Part shown: positions 1,524-52,234 of the stretch, piece by piece
Position numbering within the stretch: the first letter of the stretch is position 1
Layout of the letters: each line of letters opens with the position of its first letter
Source of the DNA: Escherichia phage RB16
Sequence record: NC_014467.1
Length of the DNA: 64,000 bases
Direction: 5' to 3' (one strand)
Program-made: the position numbers and the translations under genes
Notes under the pieces: model-generated
Databases searched by the model: none
What the model saw: the letters and a program-made list of their open reading frames with translations, nothing else
What the model was told of the DNA's origin: nothing

Positions 1524-1797
1524 CAGATATGAAAAATATTTCGGTGAGAACCCCCGATATTCTCACCTGTTGCGTATGCTGGGAATGAAACATATCATTG
1601 CCACTTCTGACGAAGCAGGGGAAACCAGCGCAGTTTGTTTGACCATCATGAAGGGTGCATGGCATTCATCACGAACATGGTCAATCTTCATGCTTGATAC
1701 ACTGGACGACGATACGCTATCATATACTATTGATTCATCGGTTGTTCAATTGATCACTGAATTATGTGAACGGATTTTAAATGAAACTAAAAACTAA
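1516..1797 (+). CDS. hypothetical protein (93 aa)
   Basis: ORF between gp47 and homing endonuclease; no recognisable motif. Confidence 0.35.
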   Translation: MHSRYEKYFGENPRYSHLLRMLGMKHIIATSDEAGETSAVCLTIMKGAWHSSRTWSIFMLDTLDDDTLSYTIDSSVVQLITELCERILNETKN

Positions 1798-2311
1798 ATC
1801 ACATGGAGGTGGAAACCGAACAATTGATGATGAAATTTCTTCAATAAATGAACTACTTCCTATGTTGGATGTTGATGTTGTATTAGGAAAGATATACTGG
1901 AAAAACTCACCTCGTAAGAGCGTCCCTGCTGGAACTGAAGCAGGGAGTAAGACAAAACATGGTTACGTTGCTATCGGGTATAAAAAGACGTATTATAGAC
2001 GACATCGAATAATATTTTACGTCGCTAATGGTTATCTTCCTCTCGTAGTAGATCACAAACACGGTGTTGAATCTGGTGATGGAATAGATAACCTGCAAGA
2101 CATCACGCAACAACAAAACTCCGTTAAAATGAGAATGAGTAGAAGGAATTCTTCTGGGTTTAGAGGGGTTTCCTTTCACCAAAAATCAGGAAAATGGCAA
2201 TCATGTATTGTGTATAATAGAAAAACAATATATCTTGGTTTGTATGAAACACCAGAACTTGCACATAGTGCATATACAGACAAGCGAAAAGAATTATTTG
2301 GTGAAATATGA
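1781..2311 (+). CDS. HNH-AP2 homing endonuclease (paralog 1 of 6)
   Basis: HNH_3-type motif (VDHKHGV...DNLQ...QQQN) followed by AP2-like DNA-binding domain (SGFRGVSF...GKWQ...LGLY). Confidence 0.8.
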   Translation: MKLKTKSHGGGNRTIDDEISSINELLPMLDVDVVLGKIYWKNSPRKSVPAGTEAGSKTKHGYVAIGYKKTYYRRHRIIFYVANGYLPLVVDHKHGVESGDGIDNLQDITQQQNSVKMRMSRRNSSGFRGVSFHQKSGKWQSCIVYNRKTIYLGLYETPELAHSAYTDKRKELFGEI

Positions 2312-4005
2312 AATTAAATTTCCGTAAAATTAAGTATCAAAACATCTTATCAGTGGGTAATACCCCGATCGAACTTGAATTCGATACTGCAAAGAAAACC
2401 CTGATCACGGGTAAAAATGGTGGTGGTAAATCCACACTGATCGAAGCGTTGACGTATGCTCTTTTTGGTAAATCATTTCGTGATTTAAAAGTCGGGCAAC
2501 TGGTAAACAGTGTCAACAAAAAGAAATGTCTGGTTGAACTGGATATTGAATACGGGAAAGATTCGTACAAAGTCGTTCGCGGACAAAAGCCGAAAGTATT
2601 CGAGATCTGGAAAAACGGTGATAAGTTAGCAGAAGATTCAGCAGCGGGTGATTATCAATCTCAGCTTGAATCCATGCTCAATATTAACCTGGTTGGATTC
2701 AAACAGGTAATCGTGTTGGGTACTGCTGGCTATACTCCATTCATGGAACTGAAAACACCGGATCGCCGTAAACTGGTTGAAGACCTGTTGTCGCTATCGG
2801 TTATCAGTGAAATGGATAAGCTGAACAAATCATATGTCCGTGGTGTTAATCAGCAGTTGGATACCCTGTCAATGCAGGTTAACCACATCCAGCAGCAGAT
2901 CGCTACACACCAGCGCTTCATTGATGAACAGCGAGCTAAAGCGAACCAGAACAACGCACGATACAAAGAGATCTACGATAGCCACGTTGAAACCGCTAAG
3001 AACATCAAAGCACAGCTTATGCAGTTGCAAGCGGAGATCGCAGAAACGGTGATCACTGGTGCAGACCGAACGGAAGATATAAACAAACTCCGTGATGGCT
3101 ATACGCGCCTCTCTATGACTGTAGAACAGTTTAAAAAGCTGGAAGTGATGTATCAGAAAGGTGGTGAGTGTCCGGCCTGTAAACAGGCGATTAAGCCCAC
3201 TCCTGAACGCATGGAAGAGATCGCAAACAACATCAAAGCGGGTACGCAACGATTAACGCTGATCAAAACCAAACAGGACGAGTTGCAAGGCATTATGAAC
3301 GAGTTGCTTCAACAGCAACGCGCACTGAATGCTATGAAAACGAAATACGAAGCCCTGAAAGGTACGCTGCAAAATGAAGTTGCCAACGCTAAACGCGCAC
3401 AAGCGATCATGGAACAGGCAAGCGCGGAAGTTGTTATTGATGAAGAACCTGTTAAGCAGTTACAACAACAGGAAGCAGATCTGAACGATAAACGTCAAGG
3501 ATATGTGAAAGAAAAATATATCCGTGGTATCGTTACAGATATGTTAAAAGATTCTGGTGTAAAAGCCAGCATCGTAAAACGTTATATCCCGTACTTCAAC
3601 AAGCAGATCGCATACTATCTGGATCTGTTGGGCGCTGACTACCAGTTCACTTTAGATGATGAATTCAACGAATCAATCAAATCACTGGGGCGCGATGATT
3701 TTAGTTACGCATCATTTAGCCAGGGTGAACGCGCACGAATCAACCTTGCGTTGCTTATGACCTGGCGTGATGTAACAAGTAAAGTTTCTGGTGTTGATTT
3801 ATCGCTTCTGGTACTAGATGAAATCTTTGATGGTGCAATGGATAAAGAAGGTGGATTTGCAGTCAGAGCATTACTGGATGATATTGAAGGTAATGTTATT
3901 GTAATCAGTCATCAGGATTTAGATCCACAAGAATTTCATCGACATATTGTTATGTCTAAAGTAGGGAGATTCACCAAATGCAAGATAGTAAACAATGATT
4001 ACTAA
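2308..4005 (+). CDS. 46: recombination endonuclease subunit gp46 (Rad50/SbcC-like ATPase)
   Basis: 565 aa; Walker A GKNGGGKST; long coiled-coil middle; aligns by eye to T4 gp46 N-terminus. Confidence 0.9.
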   Translation: MKLNFRKIKYQNILSVGNTPIELEFDTAKKTLITGKNGGGKSTLIEALTYALFGKSFRDLKVGQLVNSVNKKKCLVELDIEYGKDSYKVVRGQKPKVFEIWKNGDKLAEDSAAGDYQSQLESMLNINLVGFKQVIVLGTAGYTPFMELKTPDRRKLVEDLLSLSVISEMDKLNKSYVRGVNQQLDTLSMQVNHIQQQIATHQRFIDEQRAKANQNNARYKEIYDSHVETAKNIKAQLMQLQAEIAETVITGADRTEDINKLRDGYTRLSMTVEQFKKLEVMYQKGGECPACKQAIKPTPERMEEIANNIKAGTQRLTLIKTKQDELQGIMNELLQQQRALNAMKTKYEALKGTLQNEVANAKRAQAIMEQASAEVVIDEEPVKQLQQQEADLNDKRQGYVKEKYIRGIVTDMLKDSGVKASIVKRYIPYFNKQIAYYLDLLGADYQFTLDDEFNESIKSLGRDDFSYASFSQGERARINLALLMTWRDVTSKVSGVDLSLLVLDEIFDGAMDKEGGFAVRALLDDIEGNVIVISHQDLDPQEFHRHIVMSKVGRFTKCKIVNNDY

Positions 4006-4570
4006 AAACTGGGACGACGAATTTCAAGCCGAGATTCGTCGTCGGTTTTACCATGTAAACGGGGTTTTGTATCACAAGACGGAGAGTAAACAAACTGCTT
4101 TTTCTCCGGCGGGATACTATTTCAAACCTGGTGATATGGTGAAATGTCACAAAACTAGGAAAAAGACTCCATATTTACAGATTTGTATGCGATATGAAGG
4201 GAAGTCTAACTATCTATACGTACATAGGGTTGTGTGGTTTCTTGAATATGGGTATCAGGTTGATACGATCGACCATATCGATCTAAATCCTTTAAATAAT
4301 GATCCATCGAATCTTAGAGAAGCAAGCACACAGCAGAACCATTACAACAAAAATGGAAAACCTAACACTTCCTCCACTTACAAGGGTGTATCATGGGATA
4401 AATCAACTTGCAAATGGAAAGTGGGTATTCAGCATAATAAGAAAAAGATTCATTTAGGATATTTTGATGATGAAGTCGAAGCGGCTAAGGCATACGATGC
4501 AAAGGCAATTGAAATTGGTGGACAATATGCGAGGTTAAACTTCCATGATTATGTTAGAACGAGAATTTGA
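3995..4570 (+). CDS. HNH-AP2 homing endonuclease (paralog 2)
   Basis: HNH motif (IDHIDLNPLNNDPSNL) plus AP2-like domain (YKGVSWDKSTCKWKV...LGYF). Confidence 0.8.
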   Translation: MITKNWDDEFQAEIRRRFYHVNGVLYHKTESKQTAFSPAGYYFKPGDMVKCHKTRKKTPYLQICMRYEGKSNYLYVHRVVWFLEYGYQVDTIDHIDLNPLNNDPSNLREASTQQNHYNKNGKPNTSSTYKGVSWDKSTCKWKVGIQHNKKKIHLGYFDDEVEAAKAYDAKAIEIGGQYARLNFHDYVRTRI

Positions 4571-4742
4571 ATTGATGACCTCTCCAGAAGCGGAGAGGTT
4601 TTATCTTCATAACGAACTGTTGGAAGAAAAACACGTTGTCTCTATGGAAGATGTCAAAGAAGCCTTTAAAGACAATCAGTTAGAGCTAACGCGAATACTG
4701 AATAATAAATCGTCTATGTGGTTTCTCGAAAAAATCTATTGA
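4545..4742 (+). CDS. hypothetical protein (65 aa)
   Basis: ORF track only. Confidence 0.35.
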   Translation: MIMLEREFELMTSPEAERFYLHNELLEEKHVVSMEDVKEAFKDNQLELTRILNNKSSMWFLEKIY

Positions 4743-4768
4743 CATCAGAACATAAATACCTTAAAGTT

Positions 4769-8524: not shown

Positions 8525-10777
8525 ATGAGTGATATTAAAACAGTAGTAAAATCTTCTGGCGTAAGTCAGACATTTGAAAAAGAAAAACTGTTCAAAGTCC
8601 TTAATTGGGCGAGTGCTGGAAAGAATATTGATGTTAACGCATTCCTTGAAAATGTTGTTGACCTGCTTCGTGATGGTATGACTACCAAACAGATCCAGGC
8701 TGTAGCAATCAAGTATGCAGCGGATCGAATCTCCGTTAAAGAACCTGACTGGCAGTATGTAGCGGCTAACCTCGAAATGTTCGCCCTTCGTAAAACCGTT
8801 TACGGGCAGTTTGACCCGATCCCGTTCTACGAACACATCACTAAGCTGGTTGAGGCAGGAAAATACGATAAAGAAATCCTGACCAAATGGACTAAATCCG
8901 ATATCGAATATTTCGAAGAGAATATTAATCACGATAAAGATTTTGAATTCTCTTATGCTGGCGTTCAACAGTTGATCGGGAAATATCTGTTGCAGGATCG
9001 CACCAACGGCGATATCTACGAAACACCACAGTATGCATTCATGCTGATTGCGATGTGTTTACACCAGGATGAACCGCGCACCCTGTCGGCGTTTAATCAT
9101 GTGGTTGACTTCTATAACGCAATTTCGGATCGTAAACTGTCATTACCTACGCCTATTATGGCGGGTGTGCGTACTCCTACGCGTCAGTTCTCCAGTTGTG
9201 TTGTAATCGAATCTGGTGATTCTCTGGGTTCTCTGAACGCTGTTACGTCCGCGATCGTGAAATATATCTCTCAACGTGCGGGTATCGGTGTCAACGCCGG
9301 ACACATTCGCGCTATGGGTTCAAAAATCCGTGGTGGTGAAGCAGTCCATACAGGCGTTATCCCGTTCTGGAAACACATTCAGACGGCGGTTAAATCTTGT
9401 TCCCAGGGTGGCGTTCGTGGTGGTGCAGCAACCCTGTATTATCCGATCTGGCATCTTGAAGTTGAAAACCTGCTGGTTCTGAAAAATAACCGTGGCGTTG
9501 AAGAAAACCGTATTCGTCACCTGGACTATGGCGTACAGCTTAACGATTTGATGTATAAGCGTTTAATCAATAACGATTACATCACTCTGTTCAGCCCTGA
9601 CGTTGCGAATGATCGCCTCTATGACGCGTTCTATCAAGCGGATCAGACTGAGTTTGAAGAACTCTATACCAGTCTGGAAAAAGACCCAGCGGTACGCAAG
9701 AAACGTATTAAAGCGGTAGATCTGTTCCAGTTGCTTGTTCAGGAACGCGCACAGACCGGACGCAAATACATTTTCAACAGTCACCATGTAAACCAGCAGG
9801 GTAGTTTCTCTGTTCCGATTCGTATGTCGAACCTGTGCTGTGAAATCGCGATCCCAACTTCACCGCTGGATGATGATGATAAACTGGCTGGCGAAATTGG
9901 ACTGTGTACGCTTATGGCGATCGTTCTCGATAATGCCGATATAAGCGAATTCCCAGCCCTTACACGCATCGCAGTACGCGCACTGGATAACTTGCTGGAT
10001 TACCAGAACTACCCTGTTGCGGCGGCTCTGAAAGCCAAACAGCGTCGTTCTCTGGGTGTGGGTATCACCAACTATGCATCATGGCTGGCAAGCAACTATT
10101 GCGACTACTCCGAAGCATACGCCGGAAACGTTCATGAGTTGATGGAAGCGTTTCAATTTAACCTGCTGGTTGCCTCTATGGAACTCGCACAGGAACGCGG
10201 TGCATGTGGACTGTTCCACGAAACGAAATATGCACAAGGGCTGTTGCCTATTGACTGGTACTGCAAAAACGTTGATGAACTGGCATCACCTGTGTATAAC
10301 TGCGACTGGGAATGGTTACGCGGTGAAATCAAAAAACATGGCTTGCGTAACTCAACACTTTCTGCTTTAATGCCTTGTGAAAGTAGCTCACAGGTGAGTA
10401 ACTCAACCAACGGGATCGAACCTCCACGCGGCCCTGTGAGTGTGAAATCTTCTAAGGAAGGTTCATTCAATCAGGTAGTACCGAACCAGAATAATCAGAT
10501 TGACTTCTATGATTATCTCTGGACAATGGCAAAACGCGGAAATAAAGGTTATCTGGCTCACGTAGCGGTTATGCAGAAGTTTGTTGATCAGGCTATCTCT
10601 GCAAACACCAACTATGATCCGGCTAACTTCCCAGATGGTAAAGTGAAATCTGAAATCATCCTTGAAGATCTGCTGTATGCAAACTATTTCGGCATCAAAA
10701 CGCTGTACTACCACAACACCCGCGACGGTGCAGGTGAGGAAGAAGCGGAAGATTCATGTGAGGGATGCAAAATTTAA
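8525..10777 (+). CDS. nrdA: aerobic ribonucleotide reductase large subunit
   Basis: 750 aa; N-terminal ATP-cone-like region, class Ia catalytic motifs (SNLCCEI, PCESSSQ); T4 synteny td-nrdA-nrdB. Confidence 0.9.
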   Translation: MSDIKTVVKSSGVSQTFEKEKLFKVLNWASAGKNIDVNAFLENVVDLLRDGMTTKQIQAVAIKYAADRISVKEPDWQYVAANLEMFALRKTVYGQFDPIPFYEHITKLVEAGKYDKEILTKWTKSDIEYFEENINHDKDFEFSYAGVQQLIGKYLLQDRTNGDIYETPQYAFMLIAMCLHQDEPRTLSAFNHVVDFYNAISDRKLSLPTPIMAGVRTPTRQFSSCVVIESGDSLGSLNAVTSAIVKYISQRAGIGVNAGHIRAMGSKIRGGEAVHTGVIPFWKHIQTAVKSCSQGGVRGGAATLYYPIWHLEVENLLVLKNNRGVEENRIRHLDYGVQLNDLMYKRLINNDYITLFSPDVANDRLYDAFYQADQTEFEELYTSLEKDPAVRKKRIKAVDLFQLLVQERAQTGRKYIFNSHHVNQQGSFSVPIRMSNLCCEIAIPTSPLDDDDKLAGEIGLCTLMAIVLDNADISEFPALTRIAVRALDNLLDYQNYPVAAALKAKQRRSLGVGITNYASWLASNYCDYSEAYAGNVHELMEAFQFNLLVASMELAQERGACGLFHETKYAQGLLPIDWYCKNVDELASPVYNCDWEWLRGEIKKHGLRNSTLSALMPCESSSQVSNSTNGIEPPRGPVSVKSSKEGSFNQVVPNQNNQIDFYDYLWTMAKRGNKGYLAHVAVMQKFVDQAISANTNYDPANFPDGKVKSEIILEDLLYANYFGIKTLYYHNTRDGAGEEEAEDSCEGCKI

Positions 10778-10781
10778 CGGA

Positions 10782-10803
10782 GAAGCCCCGAAAGGGGCTT
10801 TTT
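10782..10803 (+). terminator. hairpin AGCCCC-GAAA-GGGGCT + T-run
   Basis: Read directly after nrdA stop. Confidence 0.5.
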
Positions 10804-10806
10804 GAT

Positions 10807-11295
10807 ATGATAACACAATCGCGATTGAAAGAATTATTGACGTATGACAAAGAAACTGGTATTTTTCACTGGAAAGTAAAACTGAATAACAACCATGACA
10901 TAACAAAACCTGCTGGCGTTGTGTATGATGGATATGTTAGGATACAGGTAGACGGTAAAAAATATCGAGCGCACCGATTAGCGTGGTTGTATGTATATGG
11001 CTATATGCCAGAACTTATCGACCACAAAAACGGAATAACTACCGATAATTGGATAGATAATTTGCGGATTGCTTCATGCACTCAAAATCAATACAACAGC
11101 AAGATTCGAAAAGATAACACGTCTGGAATCAAAGGCGTTTCTTTTCATAAAAGAACTGGAAAATGGCAAGCAAAATGCCGTGTTGATGGAATAGTTCATT
11201 ATTTGGGATTATTCCACACAACAACCGAAGCCGAATCCGCTGTAATTGCGTTTCGACATAAACACCATCAAGAATATAGTAACGACGGGAAATAA
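10807..11295 (+). CDS. HNH-AP2 homing endonuclease (paralog 3) at the nrdA/nrdB junction (position of mobE in T4)
   Basis: HNH motif (IDHKNGITTDNWIDNL) + AP2-like domain (IKGVSFHKRTGKWQA); start taken after the hairpin. Confidence 0.75.
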   Translation: MITQSRLKELLTYDKETGIFHWKVKLNNNHDITKPAGVVYDGYVRIQVDGKKYRAHRLAWLYVYGYMPELIDHKNGITTDNWIDNLRIASCTQNQYNSKIRKDNTSGIKGVSFHKRTGKWQAKCRVDGIVHYLGLFHTTTEAESAVIAFRHKHHQEYSNDGK

Positions 11296-11296
11296 T

Positions 11297-12472
11297 ATGC
11301 TTACAGTAATGAATACAAACCCAGATCACAAACACTTAGAACAGCCTATGTTCTTTGGCGAAGATACTGGGGTTGCGCGATACGAAGAACAAAAGCATCG
11401 TGTGTTTGAAAATCTTACGGAAAAACAGTTATCCTTCTTTTGGCGTCCAGAAGAAATTGACTTATCGATCGACCGTATGCAGTACGCGAAAATGCCGGAA
11501 CACGAAAAAATCATTTTCGATTCGAACCTGCAATATCAAACCCTGTTGGATACCATTCAGGGGCGCGGCCCTAACCTGGCTTTCCTCCCTATCGCTTCCG
11601 ATGTCTCGATGGAAACGTGGATCGAAACATGGGCGTTCAGTGAAACAATCCATAGCCGCAGTTATACGCACATTCAGCGCAACCTACACATCGACCCGTC
11701 AAAAGAGTTCGATAAAATTCTGCGCAACGAAGCGATCATGAAACGTTCGGCTTCCATGACAAAATACTACGATGACCTGATCGCAGAATGTCACGAACTG
11801 AAAAACATTGTGCTCAAAATCGAAATGTTAACGTCCCACGGATACCCAGACGAATCGATCGCAGAGTACGAAAAGAAACGCAAAGAGCAAATGCGTAAAT
11901 GTAAGATTGCTCTGTACCTGTGTATGCACGCTGTCAACGCTCTGGAAGCGATCCGCTTCTACGTGTCGTTTACCTTCACGTTCAACTTTGCCGAACAAGG
12001 TAAGATGGAAGGTAACGCGAAGATCATGCGTCTGATTGCCCGTGATGAAGCACTTCATCAGAAAGGTACTCAAAGCAAGATCCGACTCTGGCAAATGGGT
12101 AAAGACGACCCAGAAATGGCAGAAATCGCATTCCAGTATGAAGAGGAAGCGACACAGATTTTCCTTGAAGTATACGAACAGGAAAAAGAATGGGCTGAAC
12201 ACCTGTTCTCTATCGGTGACGTAGACGGCGTATCCCTGAAAAGTACGATCGCCTATATCGAACACCTGACGGATCAGCGTATGCGAGCGGTTGGCCTACA
12301 GTCTCCATTTAAACCTTCACCGAACCCGTATCCGTGGATGAATAAATGGTTGAAGTCAGACAACGTACAGGTAGCCCCGCAAGAGGTAGAAGTAAGTTCT
12401 TACCTGGTTGGCAACCTTAACACTGAGATCAGCGACGAAGCCTATGCAAAATGGCGACAAAAATACGCGTAA
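11297..12472 (+). CDS. nrdB: aerobic ribonucleotide reductase small subunit (uninterrupted)
   Basis: ~391 aa from MLTVMNTNPD; diiron-tyrosyl radical protein motifs; continuous ORF. Confidence 0.9.
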   Translation: MLTVMNTNPDHKHLEQPMFFGEDTGVARYEEQKHRVFENLTEKQLSFFWRPEEIDLSIDRMQYAKMPEHEKIIFDSNLQYQTLLDTIQGRGPNLAFLPIASDVSMETWIETWAFSETIHSRSYTHIQRNLHIDPSKEFDKILRNEAIMKRSASMTKYYDDLIAECHELKNIVLKIEMLTSHGYPDESIAEYEKKRKEQMRKCKIALYLCMHAVNALEAIRFYVSFTFTFNFAEQGKMEGNAKIMRLIARDEALHQKGTQSKIRLWQMGKDDPEMAEIAFQYEEEATQIFLEVYEQEKEWAEHLFSIGDVDGVSLKSTIAYIEHLTDQRMRAVGLQSPFKPSPNPYPWMNKWLKSDNVQVAPQEVEVSSYLVGNLNTEISDEAYAKWRQKYA

Positions 12473-12481
12473 GGACATAAC

Positions 12482-13039
12482 ATGATTGATGCGATTCCCG
12501 TTTATACGGGAGTCCATCACAATCTATACGCATACCTGGCGGGTTGTGTTGATTGTGATGGATGGATTAGTGAAAAAGGAAAGAATGGTTATCTGGTTGG
12601 GCTTACACAGCATATTCAACTATGGGATGATATGGTTAGCATTCAATCTGATTTGATTAACGATGGTGTTGATGCAAAATTATATGAAAGAACCAGTAGA
12701 ACAGGATTAGGTAATACGTTGATGTGCAACCTAATTATTCAAAAATCATCGGATCTCTTGATTCTGTTACCGAGAATCATTCCATACCTTCGATTTAAAA
12801 AGCAAAAAGCAGTTGACGCATATTTTAATTTGTGTAAACATTCAGATCTTAATGCAAGTTCATCCGATAATGATATGAAAGGAAGTAAACGAAAGTATTG
12901 GAAGCCGGAAGAAATATCCGAACTAATTCGTTTACATTCGGAGGGTTACAACAACCCAGCGATAGGGATTAAAATGAATCGTTCTACCGATTCAATAAGT
13001 CATAAGTTGCATCGGTTGGGTATCATGAGAAACGAATGA
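12482..13039 (+). CDS. putative LAGLIDADG-type homing endonuclease with C-terminal HTH-like region
   Basis: Single LAGLIDADG-like motif YLAGCVDCDGWIS near N-terminus; inserted between nrdB and denA. Confidence 0.45.
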   Translation: MIDAIPVYTGVHHNLYAYLAGCVDCDGWISEKGKNGYLVGLTQHIQLWDDMVSIQSDLINDGVDAKLYERTSRTGLGNTLMCNLIIQKSSDLLILLPRIIPYLRFKKQKAVDAYFNLCKHSDLNASSSDNDMKGSKRKYWKPEEISELIRLHSEGYNNPAIGIKMNRSTDSISHKLHRLGIMRNE

Positions 13040-13446
13040 TGGAATCGAAAGTTTATAGAATGTCTCTTGACAAATGCGGTCGAATAGACCGCAGTTTTAT
13101 CAAGTGTGGTGAGTTAAGAAATTGCGTTTACTGTATTGAAATCGACGGCGTGATCGTGTATGTTGGTAAAGCAAAAGACATGTGGAAGCGATTAGATACG
13201 TACAGGAATTCAAAATACTGGAGGGAAGCAAACCCCAGCAACATTTTGAAAACCGCACGTCTGGAAATGGCAATCAAAAAACGTAAGCGTGTGAATCTCA
13301 TTGTGACAACACACGACGAAAACACATATCATAATTTTGAAATAAACATGATCCGAAAAATTAATCCTGAATGGAATAAACAGCACTATGACAAAGCTAA
13401 CCAAAAACCAGAAAACACTCTTCAACCAATTAATGAAGTTGTGTAA
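13036..13446 (+). CDS. denA: endonuclease II (GIY-YIG family)
   Basis: 136 aa = T4 DenA length; GIY-YIG-like VYCIEIDGVIVYVGKA...R; T4 synteny nrdB-denA-rnlA. Confidence 0.75.
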   Translation: MMESKVYRMSLDKCGRIDRSFIKCGELRNCVYCIEIDGVIVYVGKAKDMWKRLDTYRNSKYWREANPSNILKTARLEMAIKKRKRVNLIVTTHDENTYHNFEINMIRKINPEWNKQHYDKANQKPENTLQPINEVV

Positions 13447-19126: not shown

Positions 19127-19489
19127 ATGAAAGCATATCAGATTTTAGAAGGTTTACACACTGGCACAATCTACATGGAAGAAGGTAATGATGTTCGTGT
19201 GGTGGTATCCAAAACCCTCGAAATGGATTCAGTGATCGGTAAAGCTCGCGTTGCTCCATTCGCAAAACGTGAAGTCGATATTGAATTTCAACCCACTGTT
19301 AAAGTGGAAGGTGGACAACACTTAAACGTAAACGTGTTGCGCCGCGAAACTCTGGAAGATGCTGTGAAGCATCCAGAAAAATACCCACAGTTAACGATCC
19401 GTGTGTCCGGCTATGCAGTGCGTTTCAATTCACTGACTCCTGAACAACAGCGCGACGTTATCGCCCGAACCTTTACAGAGAGTCTATAA
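19127..19489 (+). CDS. autonomous glycyl radical cofactor (GrcA/YfiD-like; T4 Y06I-type)
   Basis: C-terminal ~60 aa match the E. coli GrcA/PflB glycyl-radical domain as recalled ([61 protein letters not shown]). Confidence 0.85.
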
Positions 19490-20995: not shown

Positions 20996-21219
20996 TGATG
21001 GGTTACGTGGTTTATTTCGATTGTTCGGATCTTGATCCGTTCGTTCTGCAACAGGCAAAGAAATATCATCAAGATATCACTGGTATCAGTGTCACGAACG
21101 ATGATATGCTGTGTATCGAATTTGATTATTATCGTACATTTGAGCGTGACAAATTCCTTGCGGATATTGAAGCGTTTAAGAGTACCCTTTTCTTTGATCG
21201 TTATGAGGTTAAATCTTGA
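20992..21219 (+). CDS. hypothetical protein (75 aa)
   Basis: ORF track. Confidence 0.4.
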   Translation: MMMGYVVYFDCSDLDPFVLQQAKKYHQDITGISVTNDDMLCIEFDYYRTFERDKFLADIEAFKSTLFFDRYEVKS

Positions 21220-21821
21220 AACCAGTTATTCTTACCGACATTGACGGGATCGCCGTAAAATGGCAGTCGGGGTTGCCGTTCTTTTTGTCTAAACACAACA
21301 TGCCGACCGATATCGCGCTGGATATGGTTACGGATGAAAAGTTCCGCGATATGACCGAAATCTTCGGGTGTGATCACCAACTGGCGAAAATTCTCATGGA
21401 AGAATACAACAACAGTTCGTTTATTCGCTATCTAAGCGCGTATGACGATGCGTTGATTGTGATCAACCGTCTGAAAGCAAAGTATGATTTCGTGGCTGTC
21501 ACGGCGCTGGGAACTACTCCTACGGCAAGCCTGAACCGTATTGCGAACCTGAACACGCTGTTCCCTTCTGCATTCAAAGAGGTTTGTGTTGTCGGTCACG
21601 GCGAAACGAAAGTACATCGTTACCTGGAAGCCAAAGCAAAATATGGCGATCGTTTAGTATGTTTCATTGATGACCTTGCAGTAAACTTGAATGAGTGTCA
21701 TAACGTCATCAGTCAGTTGCCGTTATTCCATATGTTGCGTGGCGAACGTAGTGAACCGAGTGTACCTCATACTAAAGTGAATAACTGGCATGAAATTGAA
21801 AAAGCAATTGAGAACTCTTGA
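21216..21821 (+). CDS. HAD-superfamily hydrolase (possible 5'-nucleotidase)
   Basis: N-terminal DxDG motif (ILTDIDGIAV) and later FIDD motif. Confidence 0.5.
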   Translation: MKPVILTDIDGIAVKWQSGLPFFLSKHNMPTDIALDMVTDEKFRDMTEIFGCDHQLAKILMEEYNNSSFIRYLSAYDDALIVINRLKAKYDFVAVTALGTTPTASLNRIANLNTLFPSAFKEVCVVGHGETKVHRYLEAKAKYGDRLVCFIDDLAVNLNECHNVISQLPLFHMLRGERSEPSVPHTKVNNWHEIEKAIENS

Positions 21822-22341
21822 TGAAGAAACGCAAGGTATAGAAAACCTACTACAATGTATTCGAGTAGAACCAGAAACCGGAAAATGTTTCTGGTTGGAA
21901 AAGAGAAGTAATAAAATTCCTGCTGGAAGTGAAGCAGGTTCTTTTCATAAATCAAGTGGATATACGCGAATAAAATTCGAAAATGCGATGTACATCCGGT
22001 CAAGGGTGATATTTTATTACGTTAATGGTTATCTTCCAGTGATGGTTGACCATGTTCACGGTGTTGAATGCGGTGATATGATTTCTAATCTAAGGGAGTC
22101 CAATCAGGTAACAAATCAACAAAACCGCACACGGAATAAAAATAATACCGTTGGGTTTAAGGGCGTGTCATTCAACAAGAAATCGCAAAAATATAGCGCC
22201 AAAATCACTTTACATGGAGTGACTAAGTGGTTAGGATTTTATGATTCTGCCGAGGAAGCAAGTGAAGCATATAAGGCCAAAGCACTCGTTTCCTTTACAC
22301 ATAATGAAAGGTACTTAAATGATCTTACAGATTCTGAATGA
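21790..22341 (+). CDS. HNH-AP2 homing endonuclease (paralog 4)
   Basis: HNH motif (VDHVHGVECGDMISNL...NQQN) + AP2-like domain (FKGVSFNKKSQKYSAKI). Confidence 0.8.
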   Translation: MKLKKQLRTLDEETQGIENLLQCIRVEPETGKCFWLEKRSNKIPAGSEAGSFHKSSGYTRIKFENAMYIRSRVIFYYVNGYLPVMVDHVHGVECGDMISNLRESNQVTNQQNRTRNKNNTVGFKGVSFNKKSQKYSAKITLHGVTKWLGFYDSAEEASEAYKAKALVSFTHNERYLNDLTDSE

Positions 22342-23858: not shown

Positions 23859-23933
23859 AAAAGCCCCTTGCATGAGTAAGGGGCTTTTGTTATATTACAA
23901 ACATCGAAACGAAACAGACAAAAGGAACATCCC
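23859..23933 (+). promoter_or_regulatory. promoter/stem-loop cassette (PeSL-like): hairpin AGCCCCTTGCATGAGTAAGGGGCT with -35 TTGCAT, 17-bp spacer, -10 TATATT, leader CATCGAAACGAAACAG
   Basis: Read directly; same architecture recurs at least 6 more times. Confidence 0.6.
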
Positions 23934-24206: not shown

Positions 24207-24267
24207 TGCTTGCTTCCTGGGTAATGTAGTGGTACATTACCCATATCGAAACGAAAGGAGAAACATC
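24205..24267 (+). promoter_or_regulatory. promoter/stem-loop cassette variant (TTGCTT-17-TACATT with hairpin GGGTAATGTA...TACATTACCC and CGAAACGAAAGGAG leader)
   Basis: Read directly. Confidence 0.45.
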
Positions 24268-33446: not shown

Positions 33447-33530
33447 TTTCTCGTTCCTTTTGTCTGTTCCGTTTCAACACCCCTAATATACAAAAACCCC
33501 TCGCGATATGCAAGGGGTTTTCGATTAATT
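33447..33530 (-). promoter_or_regulatory. promoter/stem-loop cassette (TTGCAT in hairpin AACCCCTTGCATATCGCGAGGGGTT, 17-bp spacer, TATATT)
   Basis: Read on minus strand. Confidence 0.55.
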
Positions 33531-42178: not shown

Positions 42179-42447
42179 CAGTTGCTACCCCACGTATAAA
42201 AATCAAATTTTTCGGTTTGCGCTTCTTCAACACGGATCACGTAATCACTGGTATCGTATTTGTCAGCGGTACGGAATTCAACCGAATACACACGAGCAAA
42301 CACAGCATAAAGCGCTTCGCGGATTTTCTCTGCGATCTCTTCATCGGTCTTATCGATATGCAACGTAAGCATATCGGAAACCACATCTTCAACGCGACGA
42401 ACATCACGCTTATCAATGTAACCAGTGTATAAATTTACTTCTTTCAT
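42178..42447 (-). CDS. hypothetical protein (89 aa)
   Basis: ORF track. Confidence 0.4.
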   Translation of the reverse strand: MKEVNLYTGYIDKRDVRRVEDVVSDMLTLHIDKTDEEIAEKIREALYAVFARVYSVEFRTADKYDTSDYVIRVEEAQTEKFDFYTWGSN

Positions 42448-43442
42448 TTGTAATACCTCATAACATGATCTTTGTACACGAGTTCAATGAAGTTATCCCA
42501 GAACTCGCGATCGACTTCTTTCGGATAGGTAGAGATTGCAGCCAGGCGTTCAACTTCACCCATCACTTCCTCCAGTTTTTCCTGTACTTCGGCAAACGGG
42601 ACATTACCAGCTTTAACCGATTTCAACAGGTCACTCTCAGGAAGAGGATAAACGATATCACCGTGCTTGTAAATCTGTACCAACTGCATACCGCCGCGCA
42701 ATGCGTGACTTAATGCTTTCCAATCGATCCCATTGTTGGCTTCTGCTTGTCGTGCGCGTTCGCCATATTCATCCCAGAGCTTATACACGGATTTCTTCAT
42801 TTCCGCTACGGTGATTGTGAACTGGAATTTACGACCCAGAACTTCGTAGAAATTCTGCATACCACCTTTTTCGCTATAATGCAAAATAGAACGACAGAAT
42901 TCATTGGTCGGTAGTTGGTCTTTGATGTCGCCAACTTTGGTATTAACCAACGATGAAGCGTTTTCATCGTAATGTGCATTATCGGTGTCTTGCAACACGT
43001 CATACACTTCACGCAATGCAGCCAGGCGTGAACCCTTAACGCCATATTTCGCGGCTTGCTTACGAACATAACCGAACAGACCAGTTAACTCCGTGGTGTA
43101 GAAACGCCAGCGGTTAGCGCGGATATACTGCCAGATTTCAGAGTTAGCGATCAGCTTGCTATCATCAGCATGAAGCATATCGAGCGCTACGGTATCACCA
43201 TCACACGCAAGGCTGATGAACTTAGGCAGACTATACAACTGACGGTCTACGTCATCAACGGTGTTTTTAGAGTTCTTATCGCCCGTGCTCGTGTCGATGG
43301 TCTTTGGGGCTTTACCCAGTAAGATATCGCGTGGATGCGGGAGAAAGATCCCTTTATAATCTTTGTCGCTTGTCGGGGTGTTCAGTCCGTACAAAAAACT
43401 TCCAAACACCATTTCAACTACGGTTTTCATAAAATTCTCCAA
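42444..43442 (-). CDS. Pol-beta-superfamily nucleotidyltransferase (GS-x10-DxD), 332 aa
   Basis: N-terminal FGSFLYGLNTPTSDKDYKGIF matches the minimal nucleotidyltransferase signature. Confidence 0.6.
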   Translation of the reverse strand: MENFMKTVVEMVFGSFLYGLNTPTSDKDYKGIFLPHPRDILLGKAPKTIDTSTGDKNSKNTVDDVDRQLYSLPKFISLACDGDTVALDMLHADDSKLIANSEIWQYIRANRWRFYTTELTGLFGYVRKQAAKYGVKGSRLAALREVYDVLQDTDNAHYDENASSLVNTKVGDIKDQLPTNEFCRSILHYSEKGGMQNFYEVLGRKFQFTITVAEMKKSVYKLWDEYGERARQAEANNGIDWKALSHALRGGMQLVQIYKHGDIVYPLPESDLLKSVKAGNVPFAEVQEKLEEVMGEVERLAAISTYPKEVDREFWDNFIELVYKDHVMRYYK

Positions 43443-43947
43443 ATAATTCTTTCGCTTTCGCTTCGTATACTACACTAGCTTCTTCTGGCGTGGCAAACCT
43501 ACCCAAAAACATATCTTTGCGGTTATGTTTGATTTTAGCTATCCATTTATCACGAGCATTGTCGAAATAGACCCCCTTATAGCCAGATTTATTGGTTTTC
43601 GGAGTTTTTGCTTTCATCGTGTTCTGCTGTTGCGTTACTTCCTGTAGGTTATCTTTGCCATTACCGTTCCCGACCCCGCGTTTATGGTCAACGATAGCGG
43701 GAAGATACCCGTTAGCAACATAGAAAACAATTCGATGAACATAGTACGACTTGCCGTTATATCCTATTGCAGTGTATCCAAATGAATTCGTACTACCCGC
43801 AATACTTCCTACTGTAGCCCTACTACCCCTGTGAACTTTCCAATAACACAACCCTGTGTCAACATCAACCCGAAGAATTTCTAACAATGAATCTATTTCG
43901 CTGCGTTCATCTTCTAGCGTTCTTTTCCACCGTCCGTGGCATTTCAT
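43414..43947 (-). CDS. HNH-AP2 homing endonuclease (paralog 5)
   Basis: HNH motif (VDHKRGVGNGNGKDNL...QQQN) + AP2-like (YKGVYFDNARDKWIAKI). Confidence 0.8.
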   Translation of the reverse strand: MKCHGRWKRTLEDERSEIDSLLEILRVDVDTGLCYWKVHRGSRATVGSIAGSTNSFGYTAIGYNGKSYYVHRIVFYVANGYLPAIVDHKRGVGNGNGKDNLQEVTQQQNTMKAKTPKTNKSGYKGVYFDNARDKWIAKIKHNRKDMFLGRFATPEEASVVYEAKAKELFGEFYENRS

Positions 43948-44336
43948 TCTTCAATTCCCAAGATAGCAGCAATTGCTTTCAGGTTTTCGGTAGTGATTTC
44001 GGGAACATTCACAGTGTATGAATTACCGAACATAGGCTGAATTTTAGCACACAATTCTTTACGATACATCATTTCTTTATAATGTTCTTCACTGCGATAG
44101 ACAGTGTACCCCATCCATCCATCGGTTCGTCCAAATGTGCGGTCAATCTTTTCATTGGTGTACGATTTCGGATCGAAGGTTTCAGAAGTTGACGCATAGA
44201 TGTATTTTCTTGCTACTTTATGCACATACAGTGTGCGCGGTTTTCTGTTCTGTCTTGTATCAGAACGAATACCGCAATCATAAAGGGTATCGCCCACTTT
44301 CACATCAGATAAATTTCTCATTTCATTTTCCAACAC
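43944..44336 (-). CDS. hypothetical protein (130 aa)
   Basis: ORF track. Confidence 0.45.
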   Translation of the reverse strand: MLENEMRNLSDVKVGDTLYDCGIRSDTRQNRKPRTLYVHKVARKYIYASTSETFDPKSYTNEKIDRTFGRTDGWMGYTVYRSEEHYKEMMYRKELCAKIQPMFGNSYTVNVPEITTENLKAIAAILGIEE

Positions 44337-49179: not shown

Positions 49180-49209
49180 AATGACTCTCCTTTGTTGTCT
49201 GATTACACC

Positions 49210-50091: not shown

Positions 50092-50231
50092 TTAAATTGA
50101 TCGTCCCATAGTTGCCACGCTTCCAGTTCATCATTGTATTCAGGGAGTGAACGTTCCCCTGGTTTCTTGACGTAATACCAGATAATGATAGCAACGGCGA
50201 TAACAGTACCGTAAAAGATAATTAATCCCAT
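50088..50231 (-). CDS. small membrane protein (47 aa)
   Basis: Hand-translated MGLIIFYGTVIAVAIIIWYYVKKPGERSLPEYNDELEAWQLWDDQFK; overlapping start/stop coupling. Confidence 0.3.
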   Translation of the reverse strand: MGLIIFYGTVIAVAIIIWYYVKKPGERSLPEYNDELEAWQLWDDQFK

Positions 50232-50557: not shown

Positions 50558-50559
50558 TA

Positions 50560-50961: not shown

Positions 50962-51028
50962 AATTCAATCCTCAATAGTTGGTACACACATAATAAAAAA
51001 GCCCCTGCAAAAATGCAAGGGCTTTCGA
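50962..51028 (-). promoter_or_regulatory. promoter/stem-loop cassette (TTGCAT in hairpin AGCCCTTGCATTTTTGCAGGGGCT, 17-bp spacer, TATTAT)
   Basis: Read on minus strand. Confidence 0.55.
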
Positions 51029-51388
51029 TTAAATAATTTGCTTTTCTTCTAACAGTTTCGCGGTATGGTTAACCATGCGAGCATAATCACGGGCTTCTTT
51101 CTTCGTATACTTGAAGCCCGCGTTATAGCTTGCCAGCGCCTTTTTCAAGTCGCCTTTGTGGTAATCAAGCCAGTATTCCAGTTCATGAATGGCAAACTTA
51201 GAACCTCCCCGAAGGGATTCGAGCTTATTGATTACTACGCGTTTGGAATATGATTTATCCATCCGTGCGGAAGCACTGTTTACAGTGACTTGCCAACAGC
51301 CATAAGCATGATGACCTTTTTTGCCCTTTCCGGTGTTCTCACATGCGCGAGATTCGATCCAGGCGATAGCCGCTAAATGATATCCCAA
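51029..51388 (-). CDS. lytic transglycosylase (SLT) catalytic domain, possibly the 3' part of a frameshifted gene
   Basis: AIAWIESR...GCWQV...ASYNAGFKY motifs; ORF begins at TTG with no RBS and overlaps upstream ORF. Confidence 0.5.
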   Translation of the reverse strand: MGYHLAAIAWIESRACENTGKGKKGHHAYGCWQVTVNSASARMDKSYSKRVVINKLESLRGGSKFAIHELEYWLDYHKGDLKKALASYNAGFKYTKKEARDYARMVNHTAKLLEEKQII

Positions 51389-51677
51389 ACGTTTCGATTT
51401 TTCTTTTTTCAGCAGGTTTTGCAGTCGTTAGATCATAGTCGTTGCCAACTCTGAAAGCATACTCCAAAACCTTTTTCTGCTTTGGTGTAATTTCGTCCAA
51501 TTCCTTGACATATGCAGGGGCATTGGCTGGTGCTTTCTTGATCACTGTTGCCTGTTGAAGCGGAAGTGTTGACTGAACAGCAGGAAGTTTTTCGATGAAT
51601 TCTCCTAGCGGATCTGTCTTTGCGTGACCAGAAAAAGAGCATAAGAAAATGAAAGGTAGTATCCATTTGAATCTCAT
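51339..51677 (-). CDS. signal-peptide protein, possibly the 5' part of the SLT gene
   Basis: Signal peptide MRFKWILPFIFLCSFSGHA; ends in a poly-A tract where a 1-nt shift joins the SLT frame. Confidence 0.45.
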   Translation of the reverse strand: MRFKWILPFIFLCSFSGHAKTDPLGEFIEKLPAVQSTLPLQQATVIKKAPANAPAYVKELDEITPKQKKVLEYAFRVGNDYDLTTAKPAEKRKIETFGISFSGYRLDRISRM

Positions 51678-52234
51678 GGGCTTTCCTTATTATAAAAAGT
51701 TCCAAAATTTAACAACGCTGATTTTTTATAAGCGTTGCTTGCTTCTTCAGGATCATCAAAAGATCCCAAGTAGGTTGCTTTACCATTAATGGTTATTTGA
51801 GCAATCCACTTTTCATTTATAGTATTCCAAGTAACACCGATAAAACCAGAAGTATTAGTTTTCATCATACTTTTCTTTTGCTGATTTTGAGTATTAGTCA
51901 CTTCTTGCAAGTTGTCAATACCATCACCAAAAGAAACACCTTTCTTATGATCAATCATAACAGGAAGAGTACCTGTAGATACATAATACACGATGCGGTG
52001 TCTTCTAAACTGCTTTCCTTTGAAGTTTATAACGGTATATCCATCTTTCCGCAAGGTTCCTGCAAAAGAACCAACTTTAATTTTTCGGTTAGTTGATTTT
52101 ATCCATACACACGTACCGGAAACAACGTCAACGCTGATATATTCAAGTAATTCATCAATCAGTTGTTTTTCTTCTGATAGTGTACGCTCTCCCCATCCAT
52201 AAGATTTAGTCATGTTTAATACCTTTTGTAACAA
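51674..52234 (-). CDS. HNH-AP2 homing endonuclease (paralog 6)
   Basis: HNH motif (IDHKKGVSFGDGIDNL...NTQNQ) + AP2-like (FIGVTWNTINEKWIAQI). Confidence 0.8.
   Translation of the reverse strand: MLQKVLNMTKSYGWGERTLSEEKQLIDELLEYISVDVVSGTCVWIKSTNRKIKVGSFAGTLRKDGYTVINFKGKQFRRHRIVYYVSTGTLPVMIDHKKGVSFGDGIDNLQEVTNTQNQQKKSMMKTNTSGFIGVTWNTINEKWIAQITINGKATYLGSFDDPEEASNAYKKSALLNFGTFYNKESP

What the first reader, a model, noticed from the sequence alone, without database searches (positions are those of the whole stretch)
1781..52234. Six paralogous HNH-AP2 homing endonuclease genes at core-gene junctions
Six free-standing ORFs (1781..2311, 3995..4570, 10807..11295, 21790..22341, 43414..43947, 51674..52234) share the same HNH nuclease plus AP2-type DNA-binding architecture. 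They sit between gp47 and gp46, after gp46, between nrdA and nrdB (the mobE position in T4), upstream of ligase, and in the accessory region. This is a high density for 64 kb and marks these junctions as homing hotspots; several overlap the stop or start of their neighbours.
Basis: seen in the sequence. Interest (0 to 1): 0.55.

Follow-up and report, generated by a model that had tools for sequence, protein, structure and literature searches.

The report
Six known RB16 HNH-AP2 homing genes
The window is from coliphage RB16, and the six genes are its already annotated and published "HNH(AP2) 1-6" selfish homing-endonuclease genes; they are real and intact, at least two show signs of recent transfer between phages, but they are not a new discovery.

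Summary
All six ORFs exist. Each has an I-HmuI-like HNH (D-H..N..N) nuclease half and an AP2 DNA-binding half, and there are exactly six in the window. The stated neighbours are right. One coordinate is wrong: copy 6 starts at ATG 52213, not TTG 52234.

The interpretation, free-standing homing endonuclease genes at core-gene junctions, is supported:
- Every copy is present in some relatives and absent from others.
- Copy 1 is a clean 516-bp insertion between two near-isogenic phages. It lies in a 592-bp island of 100% identity inside 86%-identical flanks.
- Copy 4 lies in a 790-bp identity island.
- Copies 2, 3 and 6 are under strong purifying selection (dN/dS 0.02-0.10).
- All catalytic residues are kept in all six.

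It is not new. All six proteins match GenBank ADJ55358/60/68/90, ADJ55427 and ADJ55445 of phage RB16 exactly. These are annotated "putative homing endonuclease RB16 1-6". Petrov et al. 2010 list RB16 with six HNH-AP2 HEGs.

New detail from this check:
- Junction anatomy: the cassettes take over or rewrite the ends of neighbouring genes.
- Three junctions are occupied by different nuclease gene families in different phages.
- A probable seventh, LAGLIDADG-like, homing gene lies at 12482-13039.

No cleavage or homing experiment exists for these six genes.

The parts
1781..2311 (+). HEG1 = RB16 HNH(AP2) 1 (176 aa), between a small ORF (1516-1797) and gp46 (2308-4005)
   Evidence: Exact match to ADJ55358.1. 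HNH_3 plus AP2. It starts on the displaced gp46 start (ATGAAACTAAA), and its stop overlaps the new gp46 ATG as ATGA. It is a 516-bp clean insertion in UPEC03 relative to GAP161. A 592-bp 100% identity island spans 1751-2342.
3995..4570 (+). HEG2 = RB16 HNH(AP2) 2 (191 aa), between gp46 and gp45.2 (4551-4742)
   Evidence: Exact match to ADJ55360.1. It replaces 23 bp of the empty RB43 site and rewrites the last ~10 codons of gp46. Orthologues sit at the same junction in Slopekvirus. dN/dS is 0.02 with dS saturated.
10807..11295 (+). HEG3 = RB16 HNH(AP2) 3 (162 aa), between nrdA (8525-10777) and nrdB (11297-12472)
   Evidence: Exact match to ADJ55368.1. Present in GAP161 and leE only, absent from more than 40 relatives. 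It replaces 38 bp of Lw1. dN/dS is 0.05.
10780..10803 (+). Terminator-type hairpin after nrdA, ending 3 nt before the HEG3 ATG
   Evidence: 10-bp stem, GAAA loop, U-run, -16.5 kcal/mol, z -2.7. The HEG-less alleles have an equivalent hairpin. No free Shine-Dalgarno sequence lies between the hairpin and the ATG.
21790..22341 (+). HEG4 = RB16 HNH(AP2) 4 (183 aa), between gp30.2 (21216-21821) and DNA ligase gp30 (22319-23842)
   Evidence: Exact match to ADJ55390.1. Present in 12 of 171 records. A 790-bp identity island with SemperBestia spans 21546-22335. Its C-terminal DLTDSE* derives from the old gp30.2 end DLTDSK*.
43414..43947 (-). HEG5 = RB16 HNH(AP2) 5 (177 aa), between a ProQ_C-like ORF (43944-44336) and nrdC.11 (42444-43430)
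   Evidence: Exact match to ADJ55427.1. No orthologue above 57% aa in 50,697 phage records. It starts on the displaced nrdC.11 start context, and nrdC.11 restarts at ATG 43430.
51674..52213 (-). HEG6 = RB16 HNH(AP2) 6 (179 aa; corrected start), between RB16p142 (52273-52833) and vs.1 (51029-51677)
   Evidence: Exact match to ADJ55445.1 only with the ATG 52213 start. It uses the former vs.1 ribosome-binding site and start. Its stop overlaps the new vs.1 ATG as ATGA, and it replaces 26 bp of Lw1. dN/dS against EC-F2 is 0.10.
12482..13039 (+). Probable seventh free-standing homing gene of another family (RB16p066 = RB43ORF066w; LAGLIDADG-like plus HTH), between nrdB and denA
   Evidence: Pfam LAGLIDADG_3 E 0.0014 and HTH_38 E 9e-5, both below cut-off. 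Weak match to I-MsoI. Found in only 27 phage records. An 892-bp 100% identity island with RB43 spans 12425-13316, in 90-92% flanks.

Best explanation
The window is a stretch of coliphage RB16 (Pseudotevenvirus). The six ORFs are its annotated free-standing homing endonuclease genes of the HNH-AP2 (also called HNN-AP2) family.

Protein: each is about 160-190 aa. It has an N-terminal I-HmuI-like beta-beta-alpha-metal nuclease and a C-terminal AP2 DNA-binding domain.

Proposed mechanism:
1. When RB16 co-infects a cell with a related phage that lacks a given copy, the enzyme recognises the uninterrupted gene junction of that phage. It nicks or cuts close by.
2. The phage's own recombination-dependent repair, which includes gp46/47, copies the cassette and a short stretch of flank from the HEG-carrying genome. 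This is intronless homing.
3. The carrier genome is immune because the insertion splits the target and the adjacent codons are recoded.

Expression: the cassettes have no recognisable promoter of their own. They appear to be read from upstream transcripts, and most are translationally coupled through overlapping start and stop codons.

Shown here: family membership, intact catalytic motif, free-standing status, exact insertion boundaries, presence/absence polymorphism, recent horizontal transfer of copies 1 and 4, and purifying selection on copies 2, 3 and 6.

Inferred, not shown: nuclease activity, nick versus double-strand break, the actual target sequences, immunity of the carrier allele, and homing frequency.
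For: Identity:
- All six proteins and gp46 match RB16 GenBank entries exactly.
- RB16 is listed with 6 HNH-AP2 HEGs in PMC2993671 Table 5.
- The genes were deposited as DQ023482-7 (PMC2248197).

Architecture:
- Searches support the two-domain structure.
- D-H..N..N is invariant.

Free-standing: no group I intron is found in the window.

Polymorphism and boundaries:
- Presence/absence is seen at every site.

Recent transfer:
- UPEC03 (with copy 1) and GAP161 (without it) are 99.3% identical on the left and 97.1% on the right. They differ by a clean 516-bp insertion after the first 11 nt of gp46. gp46 then restarts with recoded codons 3-9.
- RB16 and UPEC03 share a 592-bp identical run over copy 1, inside 86% flanks.
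- RB16 and SemperBestia share a 790-bp identical run over copy 4.

Selection: dN/dS is 0.05, 0.02 and 0.10 for copies 3, 2 and 6. That is as low as for nrdA, nrdB and gp46.

Expression:
- No late-promoter consensus lies near any copy, and sigma-70-like matches are not above chance.
- T4 Seg and Mob genes show the same promoter-less, overlapping arrangement, and MobA and MobE nick their targets (PMC2988022).
Against: - No enzyme of this family from RB16 or a close relative has been assayed. I found no cleavage or homing experiment for them in the literature searched.
- AP2 scores are below Pfam's gathering threshold in all six, and HNH_3 is below it in copies 4 and 6.
- Copies 3 and 4 sit inside homogeneous segments with no step in relatedness. 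Copy 3 shows no identity island against GAP161, so recent movement of copy 3 is not shown.
- Strong purifying selection is not what simple selfish-element theory predicts for a fixed element. It leaves room for a benefit to the phage.
- Differences between HEG+ and HEG- flanks at copy 3 could be ordinary divergence rather than target recoding.
Confidence: 0.88

Rival explanations
1. The genes persist mainly because they benefit the phage, not by selfish drive. On this view they act as weapons in phage-phage competition. They cut the homologous junctions of co-infecting relatives and so bias inheritance of the neighbouring RB16 core-gene alleles (marker exclusion). Homing of the gene itself would be a by-product. 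This overlaps with the main explanation rather than excluding it.
For: - dN/dS of 0.02-0.10 is as low as for the essential neighbours.
- The copies sit next to essential replication, recombination and nucleotide-metabolism genes.
- Copies 1, 5 and 6 lie at sharp steps in relatedness to other phages, in the top 0.2-2.8% of positions.
- T4 HEG nucleases take part in the partial exclusion of T2 (PMC2993671).
- Nuclease genes mark exchange boundaries in ICP1 phages (PMC10448857).
Against: - Most relatives do well without each copy.
- The identity islands for copies 1 and 4 are hardly wider than the cassette, with about 30 bp of flank for copy 1. So little neighbouring sequence was carried along.
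- The step test is not significant for copies 2, 3 and 4. The genome is mosaic everywhere, and 32% of random positions show a step of 10 points or more.
Confidence: 0.3
2. The six are a recent within-genome expansion. One element would have transposed repeatedly inside RB16, rather than six separate site-specific lineages being acquired.
For: - They share one architecture and some N-terminal similarity. Copies 1, 4, 5 and 6 are 40-51% identical and share an N-terminal helix.
- All six of the genome's HNH-AP2 copies lie within this 64 kb.
Against: - Pairwise identity is only 28-51%. DNA repeats between copies are short and 70-76% identical.
- Copies 1, 2, 3, 4 and 6 each have much closer orthologues (76-100% nt) at the same junction in other phages.
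- Relatives at 57% identity or less occupy other sites, for example GAP161_144 next to phoH and RB43ORF093w upstream of gp30.2.
Confidence: 0.07
3. The ORFs are immobile relics or have been converted to DNA-binding regulators that use only the AP2 domain, with no nuclease activity.
For: - Two copies fall below the Pfam HNH_3 threshold.
- Copy 4 has lost the His of the upstream 'HR' box.
- AP2 domains became transcription factors in plants (Magnani 2004, cited).
Against: - The catalytic D-H and both Asn are invariant.
- Purifying selection is measured over whole proteins, not just the AP2 half.
- There are no truncated or AP2-only copies in the window.
- Identity islands and a clean insertion in a near-isogenic pair show recent movement of copies 1 and 4.
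Confidence: 0.04

Closest known systems
RB16 'putative homing endonuclease RB16 1-6' / 'RB16 HNH(AP2) 1-6' (GenBank ADJ55358, 55360, 55368, 55390, 55427, 55445; UniProt Q4TZV2-Q4TZU7; Petrov et al. 2010, Virol J 7:292, Table 5)
   Same: Identical. All six proteins match exactly, as does gp46. The published count of six HNH-AP2 HEGs for RB16 equals the six found here.
   Different: Nothing differs in sequence. What this check adds is analysis: insertion boundaries, identity islands, selection, and occupancy in newer genomes.
HNH-AP2 / HNN-AP2 homing endonuclease family (Magnani, Sjolander and Hake 2004; also in RB43, RB49, JSE, KP15, Xanthomonas phages Xp10/OP1/Xop411, T5-like phages, Tetrahymena Tlr)
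   Same: Same two-domain architecture, with the HNN variant of the motif (D-H..N..N and no Cys4 zinc site). The genes are free-standing and sporadic in phage genomes.
   Different: In the Xanthomonas phages many copies are truncated or degenerate, and their sites look random. Here all six are intact, under purifying selection and tied to specific junctions shared across phages.
I-HmuI (PDB 1u3e), intron-encoded HNH nicking endonuclease of Bacillus phage SPO1
   Same: It is the best sequence and fold match for the N-terminal nuclease half, and the catalytic D-H and Asn residues align. This suggests a single active site that nicks one strand. The assignment of catalytic roles to those residues in I-HmuI is from my own knowledge of the literature.
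   Different: I-HmuI is intron-encoded and its C-terminal DNA-binding part is not an AP2 domain. The whole-chain TM-score is only 0.42. No intron is present here.
T4 free-standing Mob genes, especially mobE (nrdA/nrdB junction) and mobD (nrdC.11 junction)
   Same: Same lifestyle: promoter-less cassettes that overlap their neighbours. Two junctions are literally the same, nrdA/nrdB for copy 3 and nrdC.11 for copy 5 (PMC2988022 Table 1).
   Different: It is a different protein family. The mobE-like gene of Lw1, GAP161 and UPEC03 does not match the HNH-AP2 profile (E 0.24) and is 19-24% identical. At the gp46/gp45.2 junction it lies on the opposite strand.

Membership tests
HNH-AP2 (HNN-AP2) free-standing homing endonuclease genes | N-terminal I-HmuI-type beta-beta-alpha-metal nuclease motif with catalytic D-H and downstream Asn residues | tested here: met
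   D91, H92, N104 and N113 are invariant in all six. They align to the I-HmuI DH...N...N. Pfam HNH_3 hits all six, but copies 4 and 6 are below the gathering score. I-HmuI is the top fold match.
HNH-AP2 (HNN-AP2) free-standing homing endonuclease genes | C-terminal AP2 DNA-binding domain | tested here: met
   Pfam AP2 hits all six at E 2e-7 to 7e-4, all below the gathering score. The profile matches PDB WRI1, TEM1 and ERF AP2 domains down to E 3.5e-11. The model superposes on AP2 domains at 1.1-2.1 A over 52-55 residues.
HNH-AP2 (HNN-AP2) free-standing homing endonuclease genes | Free-standing ORF, not inside an intron or intein | tested here: met
   Rfam finds no group I or II intron in the window, only two tRNAs. 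Each ORF lies between intact neighbouring genes.
HNH-AP2 (HNN-AP2) free-standing homing endonuclease genes | Sporadic presence/absence at a defined site among close relatives | tested here: met
   Searches show polymorphism at all six sites. UPEC03 and GAP161 form a near-isogenic +/- pair.
Homing endonuclease (functional definition) | Site-specific nicking or cleavage of the HEG-less allele | not testable with these tools
   This needs purified protein and the GAP161, Lw1 or RB43 junction DNA. Only the likely target regions can be inferred.
Homing endonuclease (functional definition) | Unidirectional, super-Mendelian transfer with co-conversion of flanks in mixed infection | tested here: inconclusive
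   Only indirect evidence is available. There are 592-bp and 790-bp 100% identity islands over copies 1 and 4 in diverged flanks. No such island exists for copy 3. Copy 5 has no comparator. No cross was done.
T4 Mob family (MobA-E) | Sequence homology to Mob proteins beyond the bare HNH motif | tested here: not met
   The mobE-like protein of Lw1 scores E 0.24 against the profile of the six and is 19-24% identical.
LAGLIDADG homing endonucleases (for the extra ORF 12482-13039 only) | LAGLIDADG core fold or motif | tested here: inconclusive
   Pfam LAGLIDADG_3 E 0.0014, 19.3 bits against a cut-off of 22.5. The I-MsoI match covers 35 residues only, with per-stretch E about 0.7. No structure was predicted.

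The most novel reading that the evidence does not exclude
The least-known reading still open is that these cassettes are active now and shape the mosaic of Pseudotevenvirus and Slopekvirus genomes. On this view each cassette enters at the start codon or last codons of an essential or conserved gene. It takes over that gene's translation-initiation region and supplies a recoded replacement end. That recoding would both immunise the carrier and leave different protein termini in different phages. An example is the three gp46 C-termini that go with the empty, mobE-like and HNH-AP2 states. HEG sites would then be preferred boundaries of genetic exchange.
Probability: 0.4. Interest if true: 0.35.

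Novelty: already known. Interest (0 to 1): 0.15.

Why it matters

For specialists, the added detail gives ready-made experiments on a family of phage homing endonucleases that has never been characterised biochemically in T4-like phages:
- A near-isogenic HEG+/HEG- pair (UPEC03 and GAP161) with a defined 516-bp cassette.
- A predicted target at the gp46 start.

The AP2 domain is also of wider interest as the proposed ancestor of plant AP2/ERF transcription factors.

Tried and rejected
- RB16's own record (HM134276) is not in the phage collection. That is why no near-identical genome came up in the DNA searches. Identity was settled by exact protein look-up instead.
- MAFFT global alignment across the insertions placed the gaps badly. 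I replaced it with anchored ungapped comparisons.
- No T4 late-promoter consensus TATAAATA lies near any copy. There is one match in the whole window, fewer than expected by chance.
- Sigma-70-like sites are not enriched, so no promoter claim is made. One 10-of-12 match at 11253-11280, inside the 3' end of copy 3 and just upstream of nrdB, is noted only as a lead.
- RNA folding of the six start regions gave a significant structure only for copy 3, the terminator hairpin. I dropped the idea that ribosome-binding sites are generally sequestered.
- The test for HEGs at recombination boundaries was clear for copies 1, 5 and 6 but not for 2, 3 and 4. A simple binomial over all sites is not significant (p 0.09-0.15).
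- I considered that the copies might be recent intragenomic duplicates. Identities and DNA repeats reject this.

Full report

Yes. ORFs exist at all six stated positions.

- Each protein matches PHROG 99 'HNH endonuclease' at E 1e-50 to 1e-67.
- Each matches Pfam HNH_3 followed by AP2. The AP2 scores are below Pfam's gathering cut-off in all six. The HNH_3 scores are below it in copies 4 and 6, so I looked for independent support.
- A profile built from the six matches the solved HNH homing endonuclease I-HmuI (1u3e, E 4.5e-7) over the N-terminal half. It matches plant AP2/ERF domains (WRI1, TEM1, ERF1; best E 3.5e-11) over the C-terminal half.
- An AlphaFold model of copy 1 (mean pLDDT 84.8) has I-HmuI as its best PDB fold match. 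It superposes on AP2 domains at 1.1-2.1 A over 52-55 residues.
- The residues that align with the I-HmuI D-H...N...N motif are invariant in all six: D91, H92, N104 and N113 in copy-1 numbering.
- A profile search of every reading frame of the window finds exactly these six and no fragments.
- The copies are 28-51% identical to each other. At DNA level they share only short 70-76% repeats.

**2. What is the window?**

- DNA searches placed it in Pseudotevenvirus, the RB16/RB43/GAP161/Lw1 group of T4-like phages, at about 90% identity to the best records.
- Exact-sequence look-up then showed that all six proteins, the LAGLIDADG-like ORF and gp46 are identical to entries of Escherichia phage RB16. 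The six are ADJ55358.1, ADJ55360.1, ADJ55368.1, ADJ55390.1, ADJ55427.1 and ADJ55445.1.
- GenBank names them 'putative homing endonuclease RB16 1' to 'RB16 6'. UniProt names them 'RB16 HNH(AP2) 1-6'.
- The gp46 sequence occurs in RB16 only. RB16's record is missing from the phage collection used for DNA searches, which explains the lack of a near-identical hit.
- Petrov et al. 2010 list RB16 with six HNH-AP2 HEGs and state that RB16 and RB43 are rich in this class (PMC2993671).
- Nolan et al. 2006 noted the class in RB43 and RB49 (PMC1524935).
- Lee et al. 2007 cite the six RB16 genes by accession, DQ023482-7 (PMC2248197).
- The finding is therefore already known, down to the individual genes.

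**3. Positions and corrections**

Annotated relatives confirm the neighbours.

- Copy 1 lies between a 93-aa ORF (1516-1797) downstream of gp47 and gp46.
- Copy 2 lies between gp46 and gp45.2.
- Copy 3 lies between nrdA and nrdB, the junction occupied by mobE in T4 (PMC2988022 Table 1).
- Copy 4 lies between gp30.2 and DNA ligase.
- Copy 5 lies next to nrdC.11.
- Copy 6 lies upstream of vs.1.
- Copy 6 starts at ATG 52213, not TTG 52234. Only that start gives the exact database match, and it coincides with the vs.1 start codon and ribosome-binding site of the HEG-less Lw1 allele.
- nrdB starts at 11297 and nrdC.11 at ATG 43430.
- Five of the six copies overlap a neighbour's start or stop. Copy 3 does not.

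**4. Presence/absence**

I searched each copy with about 1 kb of flank against 50,697 phage records.

- Copy 1 is present in 3 of 82 matching records, including UPEC03 and phi5.
- Copy 2 is in none of the Pseudotevenvirus records in the collection. It is present at the same junction in about 20 Slopekvirus (Klebsiella) phages at 80-90% aa identity.
- Copy 3 is in 4 of 171 records, which are the GAP161 and leE entries.
- Copy 4 is in 12 of 171. It is present in SemperBestia and absent from leB, and both belong to one species.
- Copy 5 is in none of 118. The best protein identity anywhere is 57%.
- Copy 6 is in EC-F2 only, at about 79% nt.
- Lw1 carries none of the six across the whole 64 kb.

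**5. Anatomy of the insertions**

Local alignments to empty sites give these inserted segments:

| Copy | Window segment | What it replaces |
|---|---|---|
| 1 | 1792-2308 | – |
| 2 | 3979-4547 | 23 bp of RB43 |
| 3 | 10776-11296 | 38 bp of Lw1 |
| 4 | 21750-22314 | 57 bp of GAP161 |
| 6 | 51652-52212 | 26 bp of Lw1 |

A pattern appears.

- Copies 1, 5 and 6 begin exactly on the former start codon and initiation region of the downstream gene (gp46, nrdC.11, vs.1).
- That downstream gene then restarts on a new ATG that overlaps the end of the cassette. The overlap is ATGA for gp46 and vs.1, and 17 nt for nrdC.11.
- Copy 2 rewrites the last ~10 codons of gp46. The gp46 C-terminus is ...FTKCKIVNNDY in RB16, ...FTKPSIKDMAVSC at the empty RB43 site, and ...FSKMEIKKS in Lw1, where a mobE-like gene sits.
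- Copy 4 lies in the 3' end of gp30.2. Its last residues, DLTDSE, descend from the old gp30.2 end, DLTDSK.
- Copy 3 lies between the nrdA terminator hairpin (10780-10803, -16.5 kcal/mol) and the nrdB ATG. No free Shine-Dalgarno sequence precedes it. This recalls the terminators and restrained translation described for T4 mobE.

**6. Evidence of recent movement**

- UPEC03 (copy 1 present) and GAP161 (absent) are 99.3% identical over 1192 bp on the left and 97.1% over 3596 bp on the right. They differ by a clean 516-bp insertion after the first 11 nt of gp46. After it, gp46 restarts as ATGAAATTAAATTTCCGT... instead of ATGAAACTAAACTTTAAG....
- RB16 and UPEC03 share a 592-bp run without a single difference (1751-2342), which is the cassette plus about 30 bp on each side. 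It lies in flanks that are 86% identical. By my own calculation, not a tool result, 0.86^592 is about 1e-39, so this cannot be chance.
- RB16 and SemperBestia share a 790-bp identical run over copy 4 (21546-22335). The flanks are 97.8% and 93.2% identical.
- Copy 3 shows no such island against GAP161. There the whole nrdA-nrdB segment is about 97% identical.
- Copy 2 (vs Matisse) and copy 6 (vs EC-F2) also show no island; they are about 80% identical, close to or slightly above their flanks.

**7. Selection**

- dN/dS between orthologues is 0.05 for copy 3 (against GAP161).
- It is 0.02 for copy 2 (against Matisse, with dS saturated).
- It is 0.10 for copy 6 (against EC-F2).
- For comparison it is 0.05-0.18 for nrdB, nrdA and gp46.
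- These are maintained proteins, not decaying relics.

**8. Hotspots and mosaicism**

Three junctions hold different nuclease genes in different phages.

- gp46/gp45.2 is empty in RB43 and Miller. It holds HNH-AP2 on the plus strand in RB16 and Slopekvirus. It holds an unrelated mobE-like HNH on the minus strand in GAP161, Lw1 and UPEC03.
- nrdB/denA holds a LAGLIDADG-like ORF in RB16 and RB43, an HNH-AP2 gene in GAP161 (GAP161_066), and neither in Lw1.
- In the gp30.3-gp30 region, RB43ORF093w lies upstream of gp30.2 and RB16 copy 4 lies downstream of it.

The window is a patchwork of segments that are 99-100% identical to Lw1, RB43 or GAP161 in turn.

- Copies 1, 5 and 6 sit at steps in relatedness that fall in the top 0.2%, 1.8% and 2.8% of positions.
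- Copies 2, 3 and 4 do not. A simple binomial over all sites is not significant.
- This suggests the 'nuclease genes at exchange boundaries' picture of Barth et al. 2023, but does not prove it.

**9. Mechanism and its limits**

- The best reading is classical intronless homing, as worked out for T4 Seg and Mob genes. The enzyme would nick or cut the uninterrupted junction of a co-infecting relative. Recombinational repair would then copy in the cassette. Carriers would be protected by the split and recoded target.
- By analogy with I-HmuI, MobA and MobE, a single-strand nick is more likely than a double-strand break. This is inference.
- No promoter signal accompanies the cassettes. Expression probably depends on read-through and translational coupling. 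This is also inference.
- I found no experimental work on these six proteins.

**10. Verdict**

Novelty is nil, because the genes are annotated and counted in the literature. Interest is low. The junction anatomy, the near-isogenic pair and the candidate seventh HEG are useful leads for anyone wishing to characterise the HNH-AP2 family.

Noticed in passing
window 12482-13039 (+): A 185-aa ORF sits directly after nrdB (RB16p066, 100% aa identical to RB43ORF066w). It has weak LAGLIDADG_3 and HTH_38 matches and a weak I-MsoI match. It occurs in only 27 phage records. It lies in an 892-bp run (12425-13316) that is 100% identical to RB43, while the flanks are 90-92%.
   Followed up: partly
window 51029-51677 (-), indel near 51409: vs.1 lies immediately downstream of copy 6. 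UPEC03's annotation of the homologue calls it an SLT-domain protein. In this window it is split into two ORFs by one extra A in a run: A6 here, A5 in Lw1, where it is a single 215-aa ORF. This could be a sequencing error or a real frameshift.
   Followed up: partly
window 3972-4544 versus L001/L002/L003 (GAP161, Lw1, UPEC03): At the gp46/gp45.2 junction these relatives carry an unrelated 236-aa mobE-like HNH gene on the opposite strand, while RB43 and Miller have an empty site. gp46 has a different C-terminal tail in each of the three states.
   Followed up: yes
window 23891-23914, 24233-24256 (+); 60698-60721, 61226-61249, 62691-62714 (-); looser copies at 33459, 60036, 40268: A repeated intergenic motif, TGTTATATTAC..ACATCGAAACGAAA, always points in the local direction of transcription. 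There are 5 matches within 3 mismatches against 0 expected. It may be an early promoter -10 element plus leader. None lies next to a homing gene.
   Followed up: partly
whole window: The window shows strong mosaicism. Kilobase segments are 99-100% identical in turn to Lw1 (about 14-17, 27-29 and 46-51.6 kb), RB43 (about 30-35 kb) and GAP161 (about 23-27 kb). Elsewhere identity falls to 70-90%.
   Followed up: partly
window 63056-63589 (-) and 62751-63059 (-): A 177-aa ORF carries only a GmrSD_N (DUF262) domain and covers just the first 178 positions of a 417-position PHROG profile. A separate 102-aa ORF follows it. This may be a split or shortened GmrSD-like nuclease gene.
   Followed up: no
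window 19127-19489 (+): A 120-aa ORF has a glycyl-radical domain (Pfam Gly_radical, E 2.5e-18). It looks like a stand-alone 'spare part' of the GrcA/YfiD type. It corresponds to vs.6 in RB43 and is absent from Lw1 at this site.
   Followed up: no
window 11253-11280 (+): A sigma-70-like match (TCGACA-16-TATAGT, 10 of 12) lies inside the 3' end of copy 3, 17 nt upstream of the nrdB ATG. This would parallel the T4 promoters embedded in HEG coding regions. It is a consensus match only.
   Followed up: no
L013 21675-22187 (RB43) and L015 41400-41924 (GAP161): Relatives carry HNH-AP2 genes at sites that are empty in RB16. RB43ORF093w lies upstream of gp30.2, and GAP161_144 lies between phoH and the endolysin region. 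They are 28-49% identical to the RB16 copies. Some Klebsiella relatives have up to 10 matching places per genome.
   Followed up: partly
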